A stretch of 61,865 nt of DNA, filler included, from Basidiobolus ranarum (lineage: Eukaryota), in assembly GCA_040143965.1 (NCBI GenBank). It is 11 parts of 11 records of this genome, joined end to end, with 100 filler letters (N's around TTAATTAATTAA, not from the genome) between each part and the next. Parts side by side here need not be neighbours in the genome. Positions count along the whole stretch, not along the records: positions 45,101 to 50,624 come from JASJQH010008442.1; 10 more parts are not named here. One strand, 5' to 3'. Shown here piece after piece: positions 5,544-51,153 of this stretch. Position numbers and translations under genes: made by a program. The notes beneath the pieces are model-generated. The model was given only the letters and a program-made list of their open reading frames with translations, searched no databases and had not been told where the DNA came from. Each line of letters opens with the position of its first letter. Within the stretch, counting starts at the first letter, position 1.

Positions 5544-5643
5544 NNNNNNNNNNNNNNNNNNNNNNNNNNNNNNNNNNNNNNNNNNNNTTAATTAATTAAN
5601 NNNNNNNNNNNNNNNNNNNNNNNNNNNNNNNNNNNNNNNNNNN
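5544..5643. other. Artificial contig spacer (N-run with TTAATTAATTAA stop linker). Equivalent spacers at 11186-11285, 16827-16926, 22465-22564, 28102-28201, 33737-33836, 39372-39471, 45001-45100, 50625-50724, 56246-56345
   Basis: The same 100-bp N/TTAATTAATTAA/N block occurs ten times. Intervening segment lengths fall from 5543 to 5520 bp. Confidence 0.99.
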
Positions 5644-13689: not shown

Positions 13690-15900
13690 CATATCTGCTC
13701 TATCTATGACTACCAATAAGGACTCTCAAGTATGGTATACTGATTCTGGAGCATCCCAACATTTCACAAATAAAAGCATTGGTTTGTGGATTATTAAGAA
13801 ATCCAAATTAGAAAGATTTTCATGGGATATAACTGCATATTAAATGTTATTTCAATAGGAACATTAAAAGTGTCTACTTTTAAGGATGTGCTACATGTTC
13901 CAGATATTGCAAAGAACTTAATATCTGTATGTAATGCCACCTCAGAAGGGCTAAAATACAATTTTGATAAGTCAGGATGCATCATCACTGATCAAAATAG
14001 GATTAATTGGCCTAGGGAGAAAAGGATCAGACCTTGTACAAACTTACATAAAATCCAAGAGGTTTGTGTATAAATAGAGGTTATTTCAATCAAGAAGCTA
14101 TTCAATTATTGCATAAAAGATTTGGCCATATTGGATTTGATAATTGGAGTAAATTGCTCCAAAATTACCTAATATCTGGAATACAAATTAACCTCCCAAC
14201 CACAATGGGCATTTGTGAGGATTTTATATATGGAAAACAGGTCAGGAAACCATTCAAGAGCTCTGGTTTAATCAAATCTGTCAAAAAATTGGATCTAATT
14301 CATTAAATTTGTATGGACCTATGCAAAATTTATCTTTGGGTGGAAAAATATATTTAATTTCATTTATTGATGATTATACAAGATACACTTGGGTCTGCTT
14401 TATGGACAGAAAAGAAGAAGGAATCTCTATCTTGAGAGTTATCAGAACACTTGTGGAGACTGAAACTGGAACTAAAATCACAAAAATATGTACATATAAT
14501 GGTGGAGAATATACTTCAACACTATTTAGGCACTTGCTGAAGGGTCATGGAATTAAGCAAGACACCGCTGCTCCCTGTTCACCTCAATCAAACTGAGTTG
14601 CTGAAAGTGCTAACAGGACTATAACAGAAATGGCAAGTTCTATGATAAATGCACAAAATTTGACTCCTCACTTTAGAGCAGAATCAGTTGATACAGCTCT
14701 ATATCTGAGGAATTGAAGTTTTGCTAGAAGTTTGTCTAACTCTACACCATATCAAGTCTGGTTTGGAGTTAAACCTGATGCAAAATATTTGAGGATTATT
14801 GGATGCATTACTTATGTCAAAATTATGTACACAAATTGGTCTAAATTTGATTCAAAAAGTAAGAAATGCATGTTTCTGGGTTATTGGACTCAAATTGAGA
14901 CCTAATCGCTCTATGACACCAAAATTTCCAAGTTAATCAAGTCCAGGGATGTTTTGTTCAATGTAAATGAAAAATATTTACCCAAAATGACCCCAGATAA
15001 TGACAAAAATTAATGTTCTCCTGATCCAATTTTTCAAATTGATTTAAACCAAAACAGTGAAGAAAAAAGCATTCTTGAGTACCCTTCAACCAAGATTTTG
15101 CCTACTGAAGTGCCCAATACAATGTCAGAAGTTGTAGTGCCTTTAACCCAAACTGGGAGATCCAATGATATTAGAAATAGCCCTGATCACTGTATCAATG
15201 AGTCCCAAAATTGGGCCTATGCCTGCACAGCTCAAATATATGAGCCCCAGACAGTAAACAAGGCCCTGAATGGCCCTCACAAACTTTTGGAGATCAGCAA
15301 TGGCAGATGAGTACTATACTTTAATTGATAATGAAACTTGGATTTTAACCAACTCAATTGATGGTAGAAAATCAATTGGCTGCCAATAGGTGTTTCAAAG
15401 TTAAAAACAACTCTGATAGGAGTATAGAAAGGTAGAAGGCTAGACTAGTAGACAAAGGCTATTCTCAAACACCAGGAGCAGGTTATACAGAAATTTTGCT
15501 CCTTTAGCAATATTTAATTTAATTAGATTGATTTTAGCTATTTCAGGTAAATATTACCTAAACAATAACTTTAAACAAGTCTAAGTATATCCTAGATATA
15601 TTAAAGAAGCTTAAAATGGAAGAACTTAATCCAGTATATACCCCAATGGAGACAAATCTTGACTTGACCAAAACTGGCTGAAATCAGATGCATTTGGATT
15701 CAAATGAAAGCCAGAAATTTTCTTATGAATCTATGGCTTGTAGTTTGATGCATATCATGGTTAGCACACAGCCAGATATTACATATTCTGTGGAAGTTTT
15801 GTGCCAATATCATCAACATTATGTAACCAAACAAATCATAGCAGTTAAGCAGATTTTCAGATATTAGAAAGATACTGTGAATCTGTGCTTATGATACACA
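13690..15900 (+). mobile_element. Decayed Ty1/copia pol fragment (protease, integrase, RT)
   Basis: WYTDSGASQHFT (protease), LHKRFGHIG (pre-integrase), GPM...YLISFIDDYTRYTWV and NGGEYTS (integrase), EPQTVNKALNGP and RT remnants. Many stops and frameshifts. Confidence 0.9.
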
Positions 15901-45100: not shown

Positions 45101-45432
45101 CTTTGACAGAGATATTGATACAAATTTGTATTGGATATGAGCTAAACCTTGGGTATCAAGAACTCTATAAAAATATTCAGGAGAGTATATCAAAGAAACT
45201 AGGGATTTTGAAGATGACAAATTAGCAATCAAGTGGTAAATGTGTAAAATTTGAGTTGCATTTTTTGCACAGGTGTTAATCCATAGTTCTCTGAGTTTGT
45301 AGCCAATCATGTGCAACTATTTTGCAAGATTTTAAAATTTCACTCCTGAAATTAAAAAATTGATTAAAATCAAATCTAACTTGACAATTTTATGATGTTA
45401 AGTAAATGGTTAATCCAAAATGGATTAAAATT
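45101..45432 (+). mobile_element. Unclassified repeat family X, copy 4 (ORF end and terminal region)
   Basis: Near-identical to 13296-13630. Confidence 0.8.
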
Positions 45433-46241
45433 TGTAGTATATTTAGTGAGGAAAGGTATACATAGAATGGTTGAGAGCTTTTTGGCAAATTCACAAATCA
45501 ACAAATATATTTTTGAAACTGTTTACTGGCTAGCTAAGAGTCATACTCTAATGTGCCTATCAGTTTATGATCTCTTAGTTATTTGATCCATAATTTAAAG
45601 AACTATAATAGCAGTAACATCAAACTATAACAGGATTCATGGGCTAGCAGGATTGATGATAGAGTAAATCTGATACAAAACACACATGGAAAGTCTATGC
45701 AACAGATATAAAATGAATTCCATTACATCAACACTATCAACTCACAGAAGTACAAATGGTGTGCTTTAAAGATGGAACTTTATAACCGATACAGTCTCTG
45801 AGATATTTTTATATATCTACCTTTTATCTTCGTAATAAGTATTCCATGATGCTGAGACAACTGCAATGCATAATCTATAGTCCATTAAGTATATATTTAA
45901 GTGTGACTTAGGGCCTTTAGGTAAGTATTTCCCTTGATTAAACACTACGTATTTCAAATTTACGGACTATATACTGCCATTTTACACAGTATATTTGTTG
46001 ATCAAACACGGCCGGATTAACTCGTCCCAAGGCCGGATAACAACTGTCTCTTTTCGTAAGTCTTAGCAAAGATAATAGATTTGATCTAGTTCTTCGAATA
46101 AGAACATTGAGAATAGGAATTTATCCGAAATATAGTTGCTAAATTTAGAATCTTAAAATAACATCATGGTATGATAGCTGACATATAGTTTTATCAAAAT
46201 TCGTAGTTTGACAAAATCAACAAATCCATTATATTTCATCA

Positions 46242-46313
46242 GCCTGCTTAGCGCAGTGGTAGCGCGTCAGTCTCGTAAACTGAAGGTCGCCAGTTCAATC
46301 CCGGCAGTAGGCA
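46242..46313 (+). tRNA. tRNA-Thr (anticodon CGT), intronless
   Basis: Acceptor GCCTGCT/AGTAGGC, D stem GCGC/GCGC, anticodon stem TCAGT/ACTGA with loop CTCGTAA, T arm GCCAG-TTCAATC-CCGGC (one A.C mismatch) and discriminator A. Pol III T-run at 46317-46322. Confidence 0.92.
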
Positions 46314-46643
46314 ACCTTTTTTAACAAACACTATAAATATGAGACTATTTTGTAAGTATACAACTATAAATTAGCCTATAGATGGTGGACATACATAGAA
46401 TCTGAAGATTAAAATGGCAATTGATCATTAGAGTATTCCTAGATTCAGAGATTTTAATGATCCGTTAGTTACCTTAATAGAATCCATTAATTCTGAACCT
46501 TATTAGCCGTGTATCCCCTTCCCCCAATATCCGATAGATTTACTTGCCTACTTTCATCTGCATATCCACCAAATACTTCTAAAGTACTGTACTGTCCAAC
46601 ATAAACCGTTACTTTTTATTTACGTGGTAGAAGTAGTGAACCC

Positions 46644-49600
46644 ATGAGTTACGTGGACTCTTTTCTGGTAATATTTGTTTGTCACAACTAAGATAAACTG
46701 CCACTTTTTATTACCTCCTAATTTACGCAAGTTGAACTCTAGAGTAAAAAAAATTAACCCTTCTTTCTTAGAATGATAGACCTAAGGATGCTTATGAGAT
46801 ACTCTCCTCTCGTCTAAAGGAGGGAAAATTGGTTTTTGAAGAAGTTTCTGAGTGGTTTCGTGAACGGTGAGTTATTAGAAAATTTGGTTTAAAGTTGAAG
46901 TTTCTCCTTGTTCTAGTTTTTCAAAAAAAAAAACAATAATAACTGACAAAAACGTTGATTGAACATATTTCTTCAATTTATTTTAGTGCTCAAATAGAAG
47001 AGATTTACGCCAAATCTTTAGCCAAGTTAAACAGCAAAAGGTTAACCTGTGAAAAGTATATGTGGTAAGTTAAAGTTGATATTTCTTTTTAACGTATGAG
47101 TCATGAGTAATTAACGAGCTTTCATCACTCTAAGCTCATTTTCCAAGGTTTGGTTAACTGTATTAGAAGAAACTAAAGAGGTGGCAGACGCCCACTTAGA
47201 GTTGAGTAAAGTTATTGGGGAGAAAATTTCCAAACCTATGAAAGAGTATGTCGTCATGGATGAACAATGGAGTAGTATTAAGACAGTAGGTGATCCCGTA
47301 TAGTACCACTGAATGCACTAGATTAATCTTACTTTACAACAGCATGAAATTCCAGTCATTAAAATTGTCAAGGAATACGACGAAAGATTATTGAGAGTTA
47401 CTAGGGTATGTCTATACTGTAATGTTTGTTCCTTATTGCAAAGAACTCACCAGTAGATCTTTTCAATTCCAATAGGCCAGAAAGATCGCTGAAAAAGAAA
47501 AAACCGTTGGAAAGAAAGCGGCAACTTCAAGTAATTCTAGTTCATGAAATAACTATGTTACACAATTCAAATTTAATGCTCTCATTAGTTATTAAGTCAC
47601 TCACCAAGTCGAAAGAACCAAAATTAGACGATTGTCAAAAAGCTTTGGACGAAACTGTACACAGATGGTCGACAGAAGCCCCCGCTTTAATCGAGGTATG
47701 TTGAATTTGAATCATCATGCAAGTAGTTTCCTATTTTAATGATTGAGCTTTAGAAATACAATCAAATTGACCGAAGTAGGCTTGAGAGTTTGAAACAGTA
47801 TATGACCACATATGAAGCTAGTCTCGCTGTGCTATGTCAAAATCAACTCAAGGTAAAGCTTTCCGTCATTCCAATTAGTTACCTTCATTCAACTTATACC
47901 TTGCTTATTAGACATACGAGAAAAACTCCAAAGTAGTGGAAGATTTTGATGTAAGCCTAGAGATGGAGGAGTTTTGCTCAACTAAGAAGAGAGGAATAGA
48001 ACCAATTGGTAATGTTCCAGAATGATCTCTGTATTATGGATTTTTACTAATGTAGTTTATAGCTTCAGCCAGTGATCTTTCGCTTGGTAATGATGTGCAA
48101 CTATATAGAGAATCAACGATTGTTTATTAACTTAGCATTCATTCGAAAGGATACTATAATACAAATACAAGTAAGAGTAGTATGAACGATGTCCAAAGCA
48201 TCAAGACAGTGTATGTCCCGAGTACTCGAATCCATTCAATTGAAACCCAAAGATAACAATATTTGTAAACAGACATACAGACGTTTCAACTAACAATGGA
48301 GAGGGGTCCAACGGAATATCACGCACAGTCAGTTGTCTTAAACCTTTCTTCTTGATAACGTGGTCAATTATTTACATTTAAATGAAGCCCACCATAGTGA
48401 TTGATGAGGAAGGATTTTCGGTACCTCCACCTGATAATTCAATCTGGAATCAACCCCCTAGTTCAGCCATAGAAGAAGTGGAGAACCTAGACGACGAAGA
48501 AGATTTGAACCAAATGTAAGTGGTAGTCAGAAAACAAATACAGAATATAGGCGAGTATTGAGTCAATTATTAAAGACCAGAAACCCCTCGTATGAAGATC
48601 GACATTAAAGACGATGCAATAACCGAAGCCCCTGAAGAAGCCGATAAAGCTTTGACTCGCGTTAGCACCACGTTACGATTGGTAATAACTTTGAACTTTA
48701 ACTAGCTTTGAAATTATATGTTAATATAATTGTTCAATATCCAAGCAGAAAAATACGACCAAGCAAACCGCTAGAGGTAGACGCGAGTAAGTATGATTGC
48801 TGAATTCTCTGCAAAGCTGAAAGAATATTAATGAATGGCAAATGGTTTAGAACTAAACGTGGCGTATCTACTATTGAATGGGACTCAAGTCCAACCGAAT
48901 CTTTCCCTTCGTCACCAAGCTCTATGTACTTCGATAGTGGTAAAAATGATTTCAACTTCAGTAATCCATCAAGCCTCCGTGGATTCAACTCATCACTCTC
49001 GCCCAGAGGAGATAACTTGAATGCAAGATTCTCAGTAATTAACAATCCCGCATTTTTTATCGCCGAGCAACCACTTCAAGTTCGAGTTACAGAGACTTTA
49101 AACGTGCTTTTACTACCCTCTGGTGATATATCCAAAGTATTTATTACTGGTGACATAGCAGTGCGTGGAAACTACAACGATGACTCTCCATTGAAATTGG
49201 TTGTCAATGGTTACGAGGATTTAGAGAAAAAGGTTTTAAATTACAAACATATAAAGGCCGATGCTGAAGAAGGTGTGTATTCCCTGGACAACCTCTCTCA
49301 ATTAAATAACCAAGAAGGGGCTTTGGTACTCAAGTATCAAGCTAAAATTGATTCCGATCGCATAAATCAATATGTTCCTTTACTATTGAAATCAGCTTGG
49401 AAATGTGAAGAAAACTTAACTTCGCTCGTGGTACAATATGGACCCAATCCTGACTTCTTAGCCCAAAAAGAAACGTGGGCAATCAAAAACTTATCATTTG
49501 TCCTGCCGGTAATAAACACTACCAATGTTCAATCAAAGCCAACCGGTGTTTGGAGTAACGAAAAGCAAAGGTTACTCTGGCGAGTTGACGATCTTAACTC

Positions 49601-49805
49601 AGGTGATGAAGGACAAAAATTGCTGGCTCGATTTGAAACAACCACCAAAGGCATACCCACCTCCATCGCAGCCAAATTCGCATTTTATGGAGATTCTGTG
49701 TCTGGTACAAAAGTCCATCTCAAATCTCAACGAGAGAATATATTCGTGCAAACTGAGTATCGAGTAAACACCGGGAAGTACATTTTAACTCCTCCTACCT
49801 CGTAA
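46644..49805 (+). CDS. SYP1: Muniscin Syp1/FCHo: F-BAR N-terminus, disordered linker, C-terminal mu-homology domain; many short exons
   Basis: MSYVDSFL|..WFRER|AQIEEIYAKSLAKL (F-BAR), the IDEEGFSVPP linker motif, and muHD VTETLNV..ITGDI..LKYQ..AWKCE..SKPTGVW..LLWRV..LLARFET..TGKY. Confidence 0.88.
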
Positions 49806-50196
49806 ATCTTCAGCCCATATTAGGCAATCTATAGAATTCTACTATGCTTGTTTTAGTAGCTTGTAAAAGTCATTCAAACTTATGCTATTTTGGCAATTTG
49901 AAACTTTCTATTGATACCAGATAGCCATTGGTTGCTTTTCTTATCGAAAATCTGTTTAGTTCGCAATAATAATCTAATCCAAACCAAACATGTCATCCAA
50001 TCAGCTTACTTGCAATAAAAAGACAACATAGTACTAACAATCTCTTTGTGAATTTAATGTAGTGAATTCTCAGTTTCAAAATATGTTAATGCAAAGTTGT
50101 TATTTTATGCTGTCGAAATCATAGTGGGAAATTGAATATTACATGATTATATTAGGTTTTGTAAGCTACATACTGTTAGATAGAGTGGTTAATGCA

Positions 50197-50624
50197 TCAG
50201 CAGAACCAACCTTCACAAAAACGATCAAGACCAGGATGGTTAACATTTTTTACTACTGCTGTGCTCGCTTTGTTATAAAGAGTTAAGTCATTCAGGTATT
50301 CTCCACTTCTCTGTATTGCAGAGATGACGTTGTCACGTAGAGTGATACTCCTCTTCTTTGTGTGTCCGCAAAACCACCCACCACACAGGTCATGTAGGTC
50401 TCTTTTGTCGTTGGGTGGATAGAGTAGCTCTAGCGGCTCCTTCTCTTCATCTTTGATATGTATTTCGTTTTCAGAGTTGGTAATTGGTAAGTTTATTCCA
50501 CTCTCCTGAGATGTTTCCATACGCTTTGTATGGCCACAGAACCATCCTCCACATAGGTCATGTAAGTCTCGTTTATCTACTGTTGATGCCGTGTAGCCTT
50601 GTCCCATAGGTAGACTTTGAGCAG
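50197..50624 (-). CDS. Kex2-processed repeat peptide precursor (KEP; pheromone- or RiPP-like), 5' end off contig
   Basis: The frame is open to the contig edge (..AQSLPMGQG). Two KR-DLHDLCGGWFCGHT-K(K)R units (cores 50527-50568 and 50359-50400), an acidic spacer and a terminal variant LDRFCEGWFC*. Confidence 0.85.
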
Positions 50625-50724: not shown

Positions 50725-51153
50725 AAGGAAAATGGACGTATGGGCGTCAAACCCGAAACCCTTGCAAAGTTCAAAGAAATTTTCACCTCTAGAATGGTAA
50801 GTGATGACAACACCATTGATGCTATCAAACGGTACTACTACCCTAGTGATAAAGCGGCATCACCATATATGTTGGATCCACATACTGACGTAGGAATTCA
50901 TGCATCTGAGTCGGTAAAAGCACAATTCAGTGACTACTATACTATATCTCTTTCTACCGCACATCCAGCCAAATTTTCGGCAGCTGTCGAAAAAGCGCTG
51001 TTGGGTACAAGTGACTTTACTTTTGAGTCAGTGTTACCTAAAGAATTTATAGGCTTGCTTGATAAGGAGAGAAGATGCTTACATATTAAGGAAAACACTG
51101 CTGAGGCAGTCAAACGGGCGCTTGTTGATCAATTAAAGAAAGACCTGCAATAG
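50725..51153 (+). CDS. THR4: Threonine synthase, C-terminal part
   Basis: YMLDPHT.VG, ISLSTAHPAKFSAAV and LPKEFIGL are typical of the fungal Thr4 C-terminus. Confidence 0.88.
   Translation, partial: KENGRMGVKPETLAKFKEIFTSRMVSDDNTIDAIKRYYYPSDKAASPYMLDPHTDVGIHASESVKAQFSDYYTISLSTAHPAKFSAAVEKALLGTSDFTFESVLPKEFIGLLDKERRCLHIKENTAEAVKRALVDQLKKDLQ

What the first reader, a model, noticed from the sequence alone, without database searches (positions are those of the whole stretch)
50197..50624. Secreted Kex2-processed repeat precursor releasing a disulfide-ring peptide DLHDLCGGWFCGHT
Seen in sequence: two identical 14-mer cores, each bounded by dibasic sites (DKR...KR and DKR...KKR) and separated by an acidic spacer. 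The frame stays open upstream of the annotated Met to the contig edge and reads A-Q-S-L-P, which fits a signal-peptidase A-x-S|LP site. Over the 18 aligned codons (DKR..HTK) the repeats differ at 10 synonymous and 0 non-synonymous positions, so the peptide is under purifying selection and this is not a fresh duplication. Established: this is the architecture of ascomycete alpha-pheromone precursors (often Cys/Trp-containing), fungal KEPs/dikaritin precursors and animal prohormones. Inference: a C-x4-C cyclic signalling, defence or host-manipulating peptide. I do not recognise the core, and I know of no peptide pheromone of this type in early-diverging fungi.
Basis: partly seen in the sequence, partly recalled or inferred. 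Interest (0 to 1): 0.9.

Follow-up and report, generated by a model that had tools for sequence, protein, structure and literature searches.

The report
Secreted two-copy ring-peptide precursor of Basidiobolus
This is the cut-off gene for a small secreted precursor that is probably clipped at paired basic residues to release two copies of a 14-residue two-cysteine peptide; it belongs to an undescribed gene family found only in the gut fungus Basidiobolus, and the peptide's role is still unknown.

Summary
On the minus strand, 50197-50622 is an ORF cut by a contig end. It carries two identical DLHDLCGGWFCGHT cores flanked by DKR and K(K)R. The two copies differ at 10 synonymous and 0 non-synonymous positions.

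The precursor reading holds as far as sequence can test it:
- The best homologue, B. ranarum K7432_012431 (152 aa, 79% identity), supplies the missing N-terminus MKLTSLYVAITLFTLTAQS|LP, a signal peptide.
- The gene belongs to a family found only in Basidiobolus: 20 genes in B. ranarum, mostly in tandem arrays, and 5 gene models in B. meristosporus.
- Cores with their flanks are 88-94% identical across paralogues. Spacers and tails are 24-31% identical.
- AlphaFold finds no compact fold.
- No Pfam family passes its threshold, no longer form exists, and no paper holds the motif.

[quoted passage not shown] KEPs as a class are already known to be abundant in Basidiobolus, so this is a new member of a known kind.

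Cleavage, the disulfide, expression and function remain untested. The predicted product also starts D-L-H, the sequence signature of an ATCUN Cu/Ni-binding site.

The parts
50197..50622 (-). ORF of the precursor, 141 codons plus the TGA stop (50197-50199). It is cut at the 5' end by the contig end at 50624. About 16 N-terminal residues of the signal peptide are missing, judged from the 152-aa orthologue.
50614..50622 (-). Last three residues (A-Q-S) of the signal peptide. The inferred signal-peptidase cut lies before L-P.
   Evidence: Alignment with 20 full-length relatives. The -3/-1 residues and the hydrophobic core were seen in 23 N-termini.
50578..50613 (-). N-terminal pro-piece LPMGQGYTASTV.
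   Evidence: Mean pairwise identity is 41% across the family.
50569..50577 (-). D-K-R, the first dibasic (Kex2-type) site.
   Evidence: K17 and R18 are invariant in 21 of 21 sequences.
50527..50568 (-). Core copy 1, DLHDLCGGWFCGHT.
50521..50526 (-). K-R, the second dibasic site.
   Evidence: R34 is invariant and K33 is conserved in at least 90% of sequences.
50410..50520 (-). Acidic spacer, METSQ...LYPPN (37 residues).
   Evidence: Measured with the following D included (38 residues): 10 D+E against 2 K+R, pI 4.1. Mean pairwise identity is 31% with indels. pLDDT is below 50.
50401..50409 (-). D-K-R, the third dibasic site.
   Evidence: K73 and R74 are invariant.
50359..50400 (-). Core copy 2, DLHDLCGGWFCGHT. 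It has 10 synonymous and 0 non-synonymous differences from copy 1, counted with the flanks.
50350..50358 (-). K-K-R, the fourth dibasic site.
   Evidence: K90 and R91 are conserved in at least 90% of sequences.
50200..50349 (-). C-terminal tail of 50 aa with a predicted helix (residues 91-127 of P0001). A tail this long is shared only with the B. ranarum orthologue.
50200..50229 (-). Third, degenerate motif copy LDRFCEGWFC at the very C-terminus. It has no dibasic flanks and lies 168 nt from copy 2.
   Evidence: It is conserved as LDRFCGGWFC in K7432_012431.

Best explanation
The gene encodes a small prepropeptide of the secretory pathway. I propose the following steps:

1. A signal peptide, lost here at the contig end except for its last residues AQS, takes the protein into the ER and is cut before L-P.
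2. In the Golgi a Kex2-type proprotein convertase cuts after each of four dibasic sites (DKR, KR, DKR, KKR).
3. A Kex1-type carboxypeptidase trims the trailing K/R.
4. Two copies of the 14-mer DLHDLCGGWFCGHT are released, together with an acidic spacer and a 50-aa tail.
5. In the oxidising secretory pathway, Cys6 and Cys11 most likely close a six-residue ring (C-G-G-W-F-C) that presents Trp-Phe.

The peptide acts outside the cell. All 14 positions are held constant across species and paralogues, not only the possible metal ligands. For that reason I think the most likely role is as a ligand recognised by a protein, meaning a receptor of the fungus itself or a target in another organism (about 0.4). 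A defence or competition role and a metal-binding role come next.

What is shown by sequence: the layout, the signal peptide in relatives, selection on the core and its flanks, and the absence of a fold.
What is inferred: cleavage, trimming, the disulfide, secretion and the role.
For: - Signal peptide: the full-length orthologue K7432_012431 (79% identity, 152 aa) begins MKLTSLYVAITLFTLTAQS|LP. Of the 26 stored family proteins, 23 show M-K/R, a hydrophobic stretch (maximum 10-residue Kyte-Doolittle mean 1.8-3.3) and small residues at -3/-1 before [LY]P.
- Dibasic flanks: K17, R18, R34, K73 and R74 are invariant in 21 of 21 sequences. K33, K90 and R91 are conserved in at least 90%.
- Core against the rest: cores with flanks have 93.5% and 88.3% mean pairwise identity. 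The spacer has 31%, the tail 24.5% and the signal peptide 43%. Of 42 cores, 29 are exactly DLHDLCGRWFCGHT.
- Within the gene: 10 synonymous and 0 non-synonymous differences between the two copies, with synonymous sites near saturation. None of 200,000 random placements was all-synonymous.
- No fold: the AF2 model built with the family alignment has mean pLDDT 52.9, 79 of 141 residues below 50, and only one helix, in the tail.
- Size: no larger form was found.
- Processing route: KEX2 followed by KEX1 processing of such precursors is described and shown by peptidomics in other fungi (PMC9769878, passages).
- Weak lead only: the ESM Atlas rank-2 feature neighbour of the orthologue is a cluster of yeast alpha-factor precursors, at score 0.83, below the 0.9 bar.
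Against: - Nothing shows that the gene is transcribed or that the peptide exists.
- The window's own copy lacks its 5' end, so its signal peptide is inferred from an orthologue.
- No SignalP was run.
- Kex2 and Kex1 homologues of this organism were not looked for, because no genome is held.
- The disulfide is only a chemical expectation. The same residues (H3, C6, C11, H13) could instead bind a metal.
- Only two dibasic-flanked copies exist, fewer than the three or more that KEP surveys require.
- One paralogue copy has lost a Cys (P0021 core 2) and one lacks its C-terminal dibasic site (P0017), so some copies may be decaying.
- In Coprinopsis, KEP knock-outs had no phenotype in axenic culture (PMC9769878), so a role may be hard to show.
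Confidence: 0.75

Rival explanations
1. Same processing, but the product is a defence, competition or host-directed peptide rather than a self-signal. It would be made in bulk to act on gut or soil microbes, or on the animal host.
For: - The family is amplified to 20 genes (40 cores, 29 of them identical) in B. ranarum, mostly in tandem arrays. That looks like selection for dose.
- Basidiobolus lives in amphibian and reptile guts and is rich in secondary metabolism (PMC7466969 and PMC10386755, passages).
- The authors of the Coprinopsis study suggest that KEP peptides act on the biotic environment (PMC9769878).
Against: - The peptide is anionic, with a charge of about -2.1 (GG form) or -1.1 (GR form) at pH 7. 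Classical membrane-active antimicrobial peptides are cationic.
- It is short and shows no amphipathic helix.
- It resembles no known toxin or defensin.
- Arms-race effectors usually diversify, whereas this core is frozen.
Confidence: 0.25
2. Same processing, but the product is a metal-binding peptide. Kex2 cleavage would expose a free N-terminus D-L-H, with His at position 3. That is the sequence definition of an ATCUN Cu(II)/Ni(II) site. H3-x2-C6-x4-C11-x-H13 could add a second site for Zn or Cu(I). The peptide would buffer, scavenge or weaponise metals.
For: - The ATCUN definition is a free alpha-amino group plus His3. DTH and DIH examples bind with femtomolar affinity (PMC13398410, passages).
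- 41 of 42 cores have His3, and all start directly after KR.
- The weak sub-threshold Pfam hits of the core are mainly to zinc-binding families: zf-RING_13 in 20 of 21 members, Prok-RING_2 in 15 of 21, RPAP2_Rtr1 in 16 of 21 and UPF1_Zn_bind in 7 of 21.
- The peptide is anionic and rich in Asp, His and Cys.
Against:
- All 14 positions are conserved, including G7, W9, F10 and G12, which metal binding alone would not require.
- All the Pfam hits are below their curated cut-offs and cover only about 10 residues.
- Two Cys in a secreted peptide are more often a disulfide.
- No metal chemistry can be computed here.
Confidence: 0.15
3. The protein is not cut. It would be a small secreted cysteine-containing protein in which the repeated C-x4-C motifs (4 Cys, or 6 in this orthologue) form disulfides or metal sites between repeats, and the KR pairs would be incidental.
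For: - This orthologue pair has three motif copies, and the third has no dibasic flanks.
- The tail is predicted helical with pLDDT around 82.
Against: - The dibasic residues are as invariant as the Cys.
- Spacers vary freely in length and sequence.
- No compact fold is predicted (pTM 0.27).
- B. meristosporus has single-core forms (P0023, P0025, P0026).
Confidence: 0.06
4. The conserved 14-mers are processing or sorting modules, and the variable spacers or tails are the active products, as with conserved pro-regions and hypervariable mature parts in cone-snail toxins or frog skin peptides.
For: Spacers and tails are also released by the same cuts, and they differ strongly between paralogues.
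Against: - The spacers are acidic, have low complexity, are rich in indels and are predicted disordered. That is the pattern of linkers.
- The core is duplicated within each gene, which makes sense for a product and not for a sorting signal.
Confidence: 0.04

Closest known systems
Kex2-processed repeat proteins (KEPs) of fungi, as catalogued by Le Marquer et al. 2019 (PMC6339444) and Umemura 2020 (PMC7329392)
   Same: - A signal peptide.
- Identical short cores (14 aa, inside the commonest 9-24 aa class) bounded by KR sites and separated by spacers.
- Restricted to one genus and expanded by gene duplication, as reported for many KEP types.
- Basidiobolus meristosporus is the KEP-richest strain in the Umemura survey.
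   Different: - Only two dibasic-flanked copies per gene. Both surveys require at least three (section 13), so the family falls outside their operational definition.
- Dose is raised by tandem gene arrays rather than by many repeats within one gene.
- The one Basidiobolus type described in the main text (S-3) is rich in Tyr and Asp. This core has no Tyr, so it is another family.
Ascomycete alpha-type mating pheromone precursors (yeast MF-alpha; two-Cys pheromones of Sordariomycetes, Leotiomycetes and some Dothideomycetes)
   Same: - Prepro layout with D-K-R before each core. That yeast pro-alpha-factor has L-D-K-R is recalled, not tested here.
- Cores of similar length containing Trp and two Cys. 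Two-Cys alpha pheromones are described in PMC6339444.
- Some of these precursors also have fewer than three repeats (same passage).
- The ESM Atlas feature neighbour is an MF_alpha cluster, at score 0.83, a lead only.
   Different: - No sequence membership: MF_alpha and MF_alpha_N match 0 of 21 members at E<=1.
- No STE13 X-Ala or X-Pro dipeptides after KR: all 42 cores begin D-L or N-L.
- The Cys spacing is C-x4-C, which is tighter than in the two-Cys motif RFCHLPGQGCSK quoted in that paper.
- No link to a mating locus or receptor is known.
Dikaritin-type RiPP precursors (ustiloxin, phomopsin, asperipin-2a)
   Same: Signal peptide plus KR-flanked repeated cores of 8-14 aa.
   Different: - No Tyr in the core for the ether cross-link.
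- No DUF3328/UstYa gene on the 5.5-kb contig.
- None of the 185 Zoopagomycota KEPs in Umemura's survey has such a neighbour (Table 1).
Animal prohormones giving C-x4-C ring peptides (oxytocin/vasopressin, urotensin II). This comparison is recalled from memory, not tested.
   Same: Secretory precursor, dibasic cleavage, and a six-residue disulfide ring carrying aromatic residues.
   Different: No sequence relationship was sought or found. There are also no amidation signal, no neurophysin-like partner, and different ring residues.
ATCUN-motif peptides (for example ant abaecin-2 with DTH or DIH; PMC13398410)
   Same: The predicted mature N-terminus D-L-H has His at position 3 behind a free amine.
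   Different: Not homologous. Binding is untested. The rest of the peptide, a ring with Trp-Phe, has no counterpart.

Membership tests
KEP (Kex2-processed repeat protein) | N-terminal ER signal peptide | tested here: met
   Present in the full-length orthologue and in 23 of the 26 stored family proteins, by simple rules (charged start, hydrophobic core, small -3/-1 residues). The window copy keeps only AQS|LP because the contig ends. SignalP was not available.
KEP (Kex2-processed repeat protein) | Near-identical short peptides each bounded by dibasic sites | tested here: met
   Two identical 14-mers between DKR/KR and DKR/KKR. The flanks are invariant or nearly so in 21 sequences.
KEP (Kex2-processed repeat protein) | At least three repeats (the operational threshold of both surveys) | tested here: not met
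   Two flanked copies in all 21 aligned members. The third motif copy in this orthologue pair has no dibasic flanks. Thresholds were read.
KEP (Kex2-processed repeat protein) | Actual cleavage by Kex2 and release of the peptides | not testable with these tools
   Needs peptidomics or expression in a Kex2-proficient host.
Yeast/ascomycete alpha-pheromone precursors (Pfam MF_alpha PF04648, MF_alpha_N PF05436) | Match to the family profiles | tested here: not met
   Neither profile is among the 17 families hit by any of the 21 members at E<=1.
Yeast/ascomycete alpha-pheromone precursors | STE13 signature (X-Ala or X-Pro dipeptides after the dibasic site) | tested here: not met
   None of the 42 cores has it: all start D-L or N-L. 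The signature is defined in PMC9769878 and PMC6339444.
Yeast/ascomycete alpha-pheromone precursors | Mating-type-dependent expression and a Ste2-type receptor | not testable with these tools
   No genome and no RNA data are held for this window.
Dikaritin (ustiloxin-type) RiPP precursors | DUF3328/UstYa gene nearby | tested here: inconclusive
   None among the ORFs of 50 aa or more on contig 45101-50196. The only neighbour is a muniscin gene. The contig is only 5.5 kb. The literature reports 0 of 185 Zoopagomycota KEPs with such a neighbour.
Dikaritin (ustiloxin-type) RiPP precursors | Tyr in the core for the ether bridge | tested here: not met
   No Tyr in any of the 12 core variants.
ATCUN metallopeptides | Free N-terminal amine with His at position 3 | tested here: met
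   41 of 42 cores read x-L-H directly after K-R. This is conditional on cleavage there and on no further trimming.
ATCUN metallopeptides | High-affinity Cu(II)/Ni(II) binding | not testable with these tools
   Needs a synthetic peptide with spectroscopy or competition assays.
RING/U-box-like zinc finger (Pfam PF17977) | Score above the curated cut-off over the domain | tested here: not met
   22.9 bits against a cut-off of 25. Only positions 16-25 of the 68 in the profile are matched, by LCGGWFCGHT.

The most novel reading that the evidence does not exclude
The 14-mer is a diffusible self-communication or mating peptide of Basidiobolus, sensed by a receptor such as a pheromone-receptor-type GPCR. 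One comparative study describes that GPCR family as the only one conserved across the fungal kingdom (PMC6733946, one passage). If so, it would be the first ribosomal peptide pheromone or hormone known in a zygomycete-grade fungus. From recall, sexual signalling in these lineages is so far tied to trisporoid small molecules.
Probability: 0.18. Interest if true: 0.85.

Novelty: new member of a known kind. Interest (0 to 1): 0.5.

Why it matters
- Organism: Basidiobolus is both a vertebrate gut associate and an occasional human pathogen. It is already reported as the fungus with the largest KEP repertoire, yet none of its peptides has a known role.
- A testable candidate: this family offers one sharply defined product. 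The same 14-mer is encoded about 40 times in B. ranarum and is almost unchanged across species. It can be sought by mass spectrometry and made synthetically at once.
- A blind spot in the catalogues: surveys that demand three or more repeats miss families that raise dose through tandem gene arrays of two-copy precursors.
- Possible reach: if the peptide proves to be a signal, it would open peptide signalling in early-diverging fungi. If it binds metal, it would be, to my knowledge (recalled; no literature search was made for this), an unusual ribosomal metallopeptide in a fungus.

Tried and rejected
- Whole-genome search of the window's own assembly: no genome is held. I therefore could not look for the 5' end, other paralogues, Kex2, Kex1, or Ste2-like genes.
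- Other family members in the window: none, by DNA pattern and by tblastn with all 26 stored family proteins. The only other hits had E>=0.18.
- Relatives outside Basidiobolus:
  - phmmer against 1.84 billion representatives gave 6 hits, all in the family.
  - The profile search gave 23 hits among 2881 candidates, all Basidiobolus or the window's own protein.
  - The JGI metagenome scan matched 71 pattern stretches, and none was confirmed.
  - The search among longer proteins gave 0 of 114 candidates.
- Pfam: nothing above threshold.
- PDB sequence search: best E-value 0.095, not significant.
- ESM Atlas structure neighbours: all TM<=0.35, meaningless.
- Earlier findings of this scan: nothing by sequence, place or words.
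- Literature:
  - The motif strings CGRWFC, CGGWFC, DLHDLCG and GWFCGH occur in 0 papers.
  - 'Basidiobolus' with 'Kex2' gives 1 paper.
  - 'Basidiobolus' with 'pheromone' gives 19 papers, 15 of them listed, and none of the listed titles is on a Basidiobolus peptide.
  - 'RiPP' and 'ribosomally' are absent from the Basidiobolus secondary-metabolism paper. 'RiPP' is also absent from the 19-genome preprint, where 'ribosomally' was not searched.
  - Supplementary tables of the two KEP surveys were closed, so a listing there cannot be excluded.
- Rejected reading, membership in the RING finger family: only 10 residues match, below the cut-off.
- Rejected reading, the exact 168-nt period as a conserved feature: in the orthologue the motif spacings are 52 and 55 residues, not 56 and 56.
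Full report
**What is there**

The window is not one piece of chromosome. It is a chain of contigs of about 5.6 kb, joined by N runs around a TTAATTAATTAA linker. There are 10 linkers, against 0.03 expected by chance. The finding sits at the right-hand end of contig 45101-50624.

On the minus strand, 50197-50622 is an open frame of 141 codons plus a TGA stop. It reads:

AQSLPMGQGYTASTV-DKR-DLHDLCGGWFCGHT-KR-METSQ...LYPPN-DKR-DLHDLCGGWFCGHT-KKR-SITLR...HPGLDRFCEGWFC*

The frame is still open where the contig stops, so the first in-frame Met (M6) is not the start. The database gene model for this contig (P0002, 136 aa) begins at that Met. This is an artefact of the truncation.

**Check of the observation**

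- The two 14-mers are identical in protein.
- Over the 18 codons DKR..HTK they differ at 10 nucleotides, all synonymous, on about 10.7 synonymous and 43.3 non-synonymous sites. Synonymous sites are therefore close to saturation while the peptide is unchanged.
- None of 200,000 random placements of ten substitutions was all-synonymous.
- The 54-nt DNA repeat is 81% identical.
C-x-G-W-F-C occurs three times, at residues 24, 80 and 136, at exact 168-nt steps. That is 3 pattern hits against 0.11 expected.
- The third copy (LDRFCEGWFC) forms the last ten residues and has no dibasic flanks.
- The exact 56-codon period is not conserved in the orthologue, where the spacings are 52 and 55 residues. I do not give it weight.

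**Relatives**

The word-indexed search found 22 proteins among 54 candidates:
- the window's own product;
- 19 B. ranarum proteins with K7432_ locus tags;
- 2 proteins of B. meristosporus CBS 931.73.

A profile of the family found 23 among 2881 candidates, adding K7432_015416. The exhaustive phmmer run over 1.84 billion representatives found 6 hits, all in the family. Name look-up identified two of those hits (P0025, P0026), plus P0027, a member of P0025's cluster, as three further B. meristosporus gene models: K493DRAFT_349408, 349410 and 364242.

The family therefore has 20 genes in B. ranarum and 5 gene models in B. meristosporus, and nothing outside the genus:
- the JGI metagenome scan confirmed none of 71 pattern matches;
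- none of 114 candidates of 267-2000 aa is related.

Locus tags and contig lengths show tandem arrays:
- K7432_012427-012432 on one 7.7-kb contig;
- K7432_013232-013236 on one 6.7-kb contig;
- K7432_016716-016717, 015415-015416 and 000096-000097;
- K493DRAFT_364242 and 364243.

From these homologues the window comes from a Basidiobolus that is close to, but not the same as, the B. ranarum assembly. The best match is 79% identical. In the family tree the window's protein pairs with K7432_012431 (support 94/76). The other 18 B. ranarum paralogues form one group (84/80), and the B. meristosporus protein lies outside on a long branch. That tree has a midpoint root and rests on short sequences, and I left out five fragmentary or fused models.

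**Anatomy of the family**

All 20 full-length relatives in the alignment share one plan:

1. M-K/R, then about 14 hydrophobic or small residues ending [TV]-x-Q-S/G.
2. L-P and a short pro-piece.
3. D-K-R, a 14-mer core, K-R.
4. A variable acidic spacer.
5. D-K-R, the 14-mer core again, K/R-K-R.
6. A variable tail.

By simple rules, 23 of the 26 proteins then stored have such an N-terminus: a charged start, a 10-residue hydrophobicity maximum of 1.8-3.3, and A/V/I/T at -3 with S/G/C at -1. The other three are the two 5'-cut window forms and one truncated model. The cleavage motif was part of my filter, so only the hydrophobic core and the charge are independent observations. SignalP was not available.

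Conservation is concentrated where a released peptide and its cleavage sites would lie:

| Region | Mean pairwise identity |
|---|---|
| Core 1 with flanks | 93.5% |
| Core 2 with flanks | 88.3% |
| Signal peptide | 43% |
| Pro-piece | 41% |
| Spacer (with indels) | 31% |
| Tail | 24.5% |

K17, R18, R34, K73 and R74 are invariant in 21 of 21 sequences. Of 42 cores, 29 are exactly DLHDLCGRWFCGHT. The window has DLHDLCGGWFCGHT twice, and B. meristosporus has DLHDFCGGWFCGHV. Across a species split deep enough to scramble everything else, the core changes at only 2-3 of 14 positions.

AlphaFold2 with the family alignment gives no fold: mean pLDDT 52.9, pTM 0.27, 79 of 141 residues below 50. The only confident element is a helix at residues 91-127, in the tail that this orthologue pair alone possesses.

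**How it most likely works**

The layout is that of a fungal prepropeptide. I propose these steps:

1. Signal peptidase cuts before L-P.
2. A Kex2-type convertase cuts after the four dibasic sites.
3. A Kex1-type carboxypeptidase removes the trailing K/R.
4. Two 14-mers leave the cell.

This route is described for KEPs and alpha pheromones, and has been confirmed by peptidomics in other fungi (PMC9769878, passages). No X-Ala or X-Pro dipeptides follow the KR sites in any of the 42 cores, so no Ste13 trimming is expected and the mature N-terminus should be Asp.

The two Cys, four residues apart, would most simply form a disulfide in the secretory pathway, giving a six-residue ring that displays Trp-Phe.

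None of these steps is shown here. No genome, reads or RNA data were available for this window. I give the processing model 0.75.

**Role**

The sequence cannot settle the role. The considerations are these:

- Every position of the 14-mer is frozen, including Gly, Trp and Phe. That fits recognition by a protein (a receptor or a target) better than a purely chemical role.
- The peptide is anionic, with a charge of -2.1 or -1.1 at pH 7. That argues against a classical cationic antimicrobial.
- Amplification to about 40 encoded copies in B. ranarum suggests selection for amount. That fits a defence or environment-directed product at least as well as a pheromone.
- The predicted mature N-terminus D-L-H has His at position 3 behind a free amine. 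This is the sequence definition of an ATCUN Cu(II)/Ni(II) site; DTH and DIH examples are described in PMC13398410. 41 of 42 cores keep it.
- The weak, sub-threshold Pfam hits of the core are nearly all to zinc-binding modules. This is a post-hoc lead, not evidence of binding.

My split within the processing model is:

| Role | Estimate |
|---|---|
| Ligand or signal | about 0.4 |
| Defence or host-directed | about 0.25 |
| Metal-binding | about 0.15 |

**Comparison with what is known**

- KEPs. The family works like a KEP or alpha-factor-type precursor. It is not a member of the MF_alpha families: 0 of 21 members match at E<=1.
- STE13. It lacks the STE13 signature.
- Dikaritins. It is not dikaritin-like. 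The core has no Tyr. The contig carries no DUF3328 gene, and its only neighbour is a convergent muniscin gene (FCH hint at 47115-47300, muHD at 48804-49805). None of the 185 Zoopagomycota KEPs in Umemura's survey has a DUF3328 neighbour.
- Repeat threshold. It fails the operational threshold of three or more repeats used by both KEP surveys (Umemura, section 13; Le Marquer, pipeline passage). That explains why I found no trace of it in their main texts.
- Other Basidiobolus KEPs. The one Basidiobolus type mentioned, S-3, is rich in Tyr and Asp, so it is different. Le Marquer's main text never mentions Basidiobolus.
- Literature. The motif strings occur in none of about 8.4 million searched papers and preprints.

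**Verdict**

The kind is known. KEP-type precursors are widespread, mostly genus-specific, and already noted as especially numerous in Basidiobolus (43 in B. meristosporus, the highest of 1461 strains).

The family and its peptide are new as far as I could search. So are three further points:
- amplification by tandem arrays of two-copy genes;
- the third, unflanked motif copy;
- the ATCUN-type N-terminus.

I rate it a new member of a known kind, with interest 0.5. It would rise sharply if the peptide proved to be a signalling molecule of a zygomycete-grade fungus.

Noticed in passing
window 5588-56301 (linkers at 5588, 11230, 16871, 22509, 28146, 33781, 39416, 45045, 50669, 56290): The window is a chain of separate contigs of about 5.6 kb, apparently ordered by slightly decreasing length. 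They are joined by N runs around a TTAATTAATTAA all-frame stop linker. Neighbouring contigs are therefore not neighbours in the genome.
   Followed up: partly
window 47115-49805 (+): A muniscin-type endocytic adaptor gene with introns. There is a weak FCH/F-BAR hint at 47115-47300 and a clear mu-homology domain (PF10291, E=3.7e-39) at 48804-49805. It is convergent with the peptide gene, with about 390 bp between the two stops. It is a housekeeping neighbour, not a biosynthetic partner.
   Followed up: partly
window 50740-51153 (+), next contig: C-terminal fragment of threonine synthase (PF24857, E=3.6e-24) at the start of the following contig. It is unrelated to the finding.
   Followed up: no
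P0023 (K493DRAFT_300011) and P0027 (K493DRAFT_349410), B. meristosporus: Both gene models contain the signal-peptide sequence twice. P0027 also repeats the whole unit of signal peptide, pro-piece, DKR, core, KR and acidic tail. They look like fusions of adjacent single-core genes, so B. meristosporus may carry tandem one-core versions of the family.
   Followed up: no
P0003 (K7432_012431), the B. ranarum orthologue of the window gene: Each of its two cores carries one substitution (DLHALC... and ...GGWLC...). Meanwhile 29 of the 36 cores in the other 18 aligned B. ranarum paralogues are identical GR-type peptides. This may reflect relaxed constraint on the GG-type gene after the GR-type expansion.
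   Followed up: no
window 45101-47000: No ORF of 50 aa or more in this stretch matches a Pfam family at E<=0.01. Its content was not identified.
   Followed up: partly
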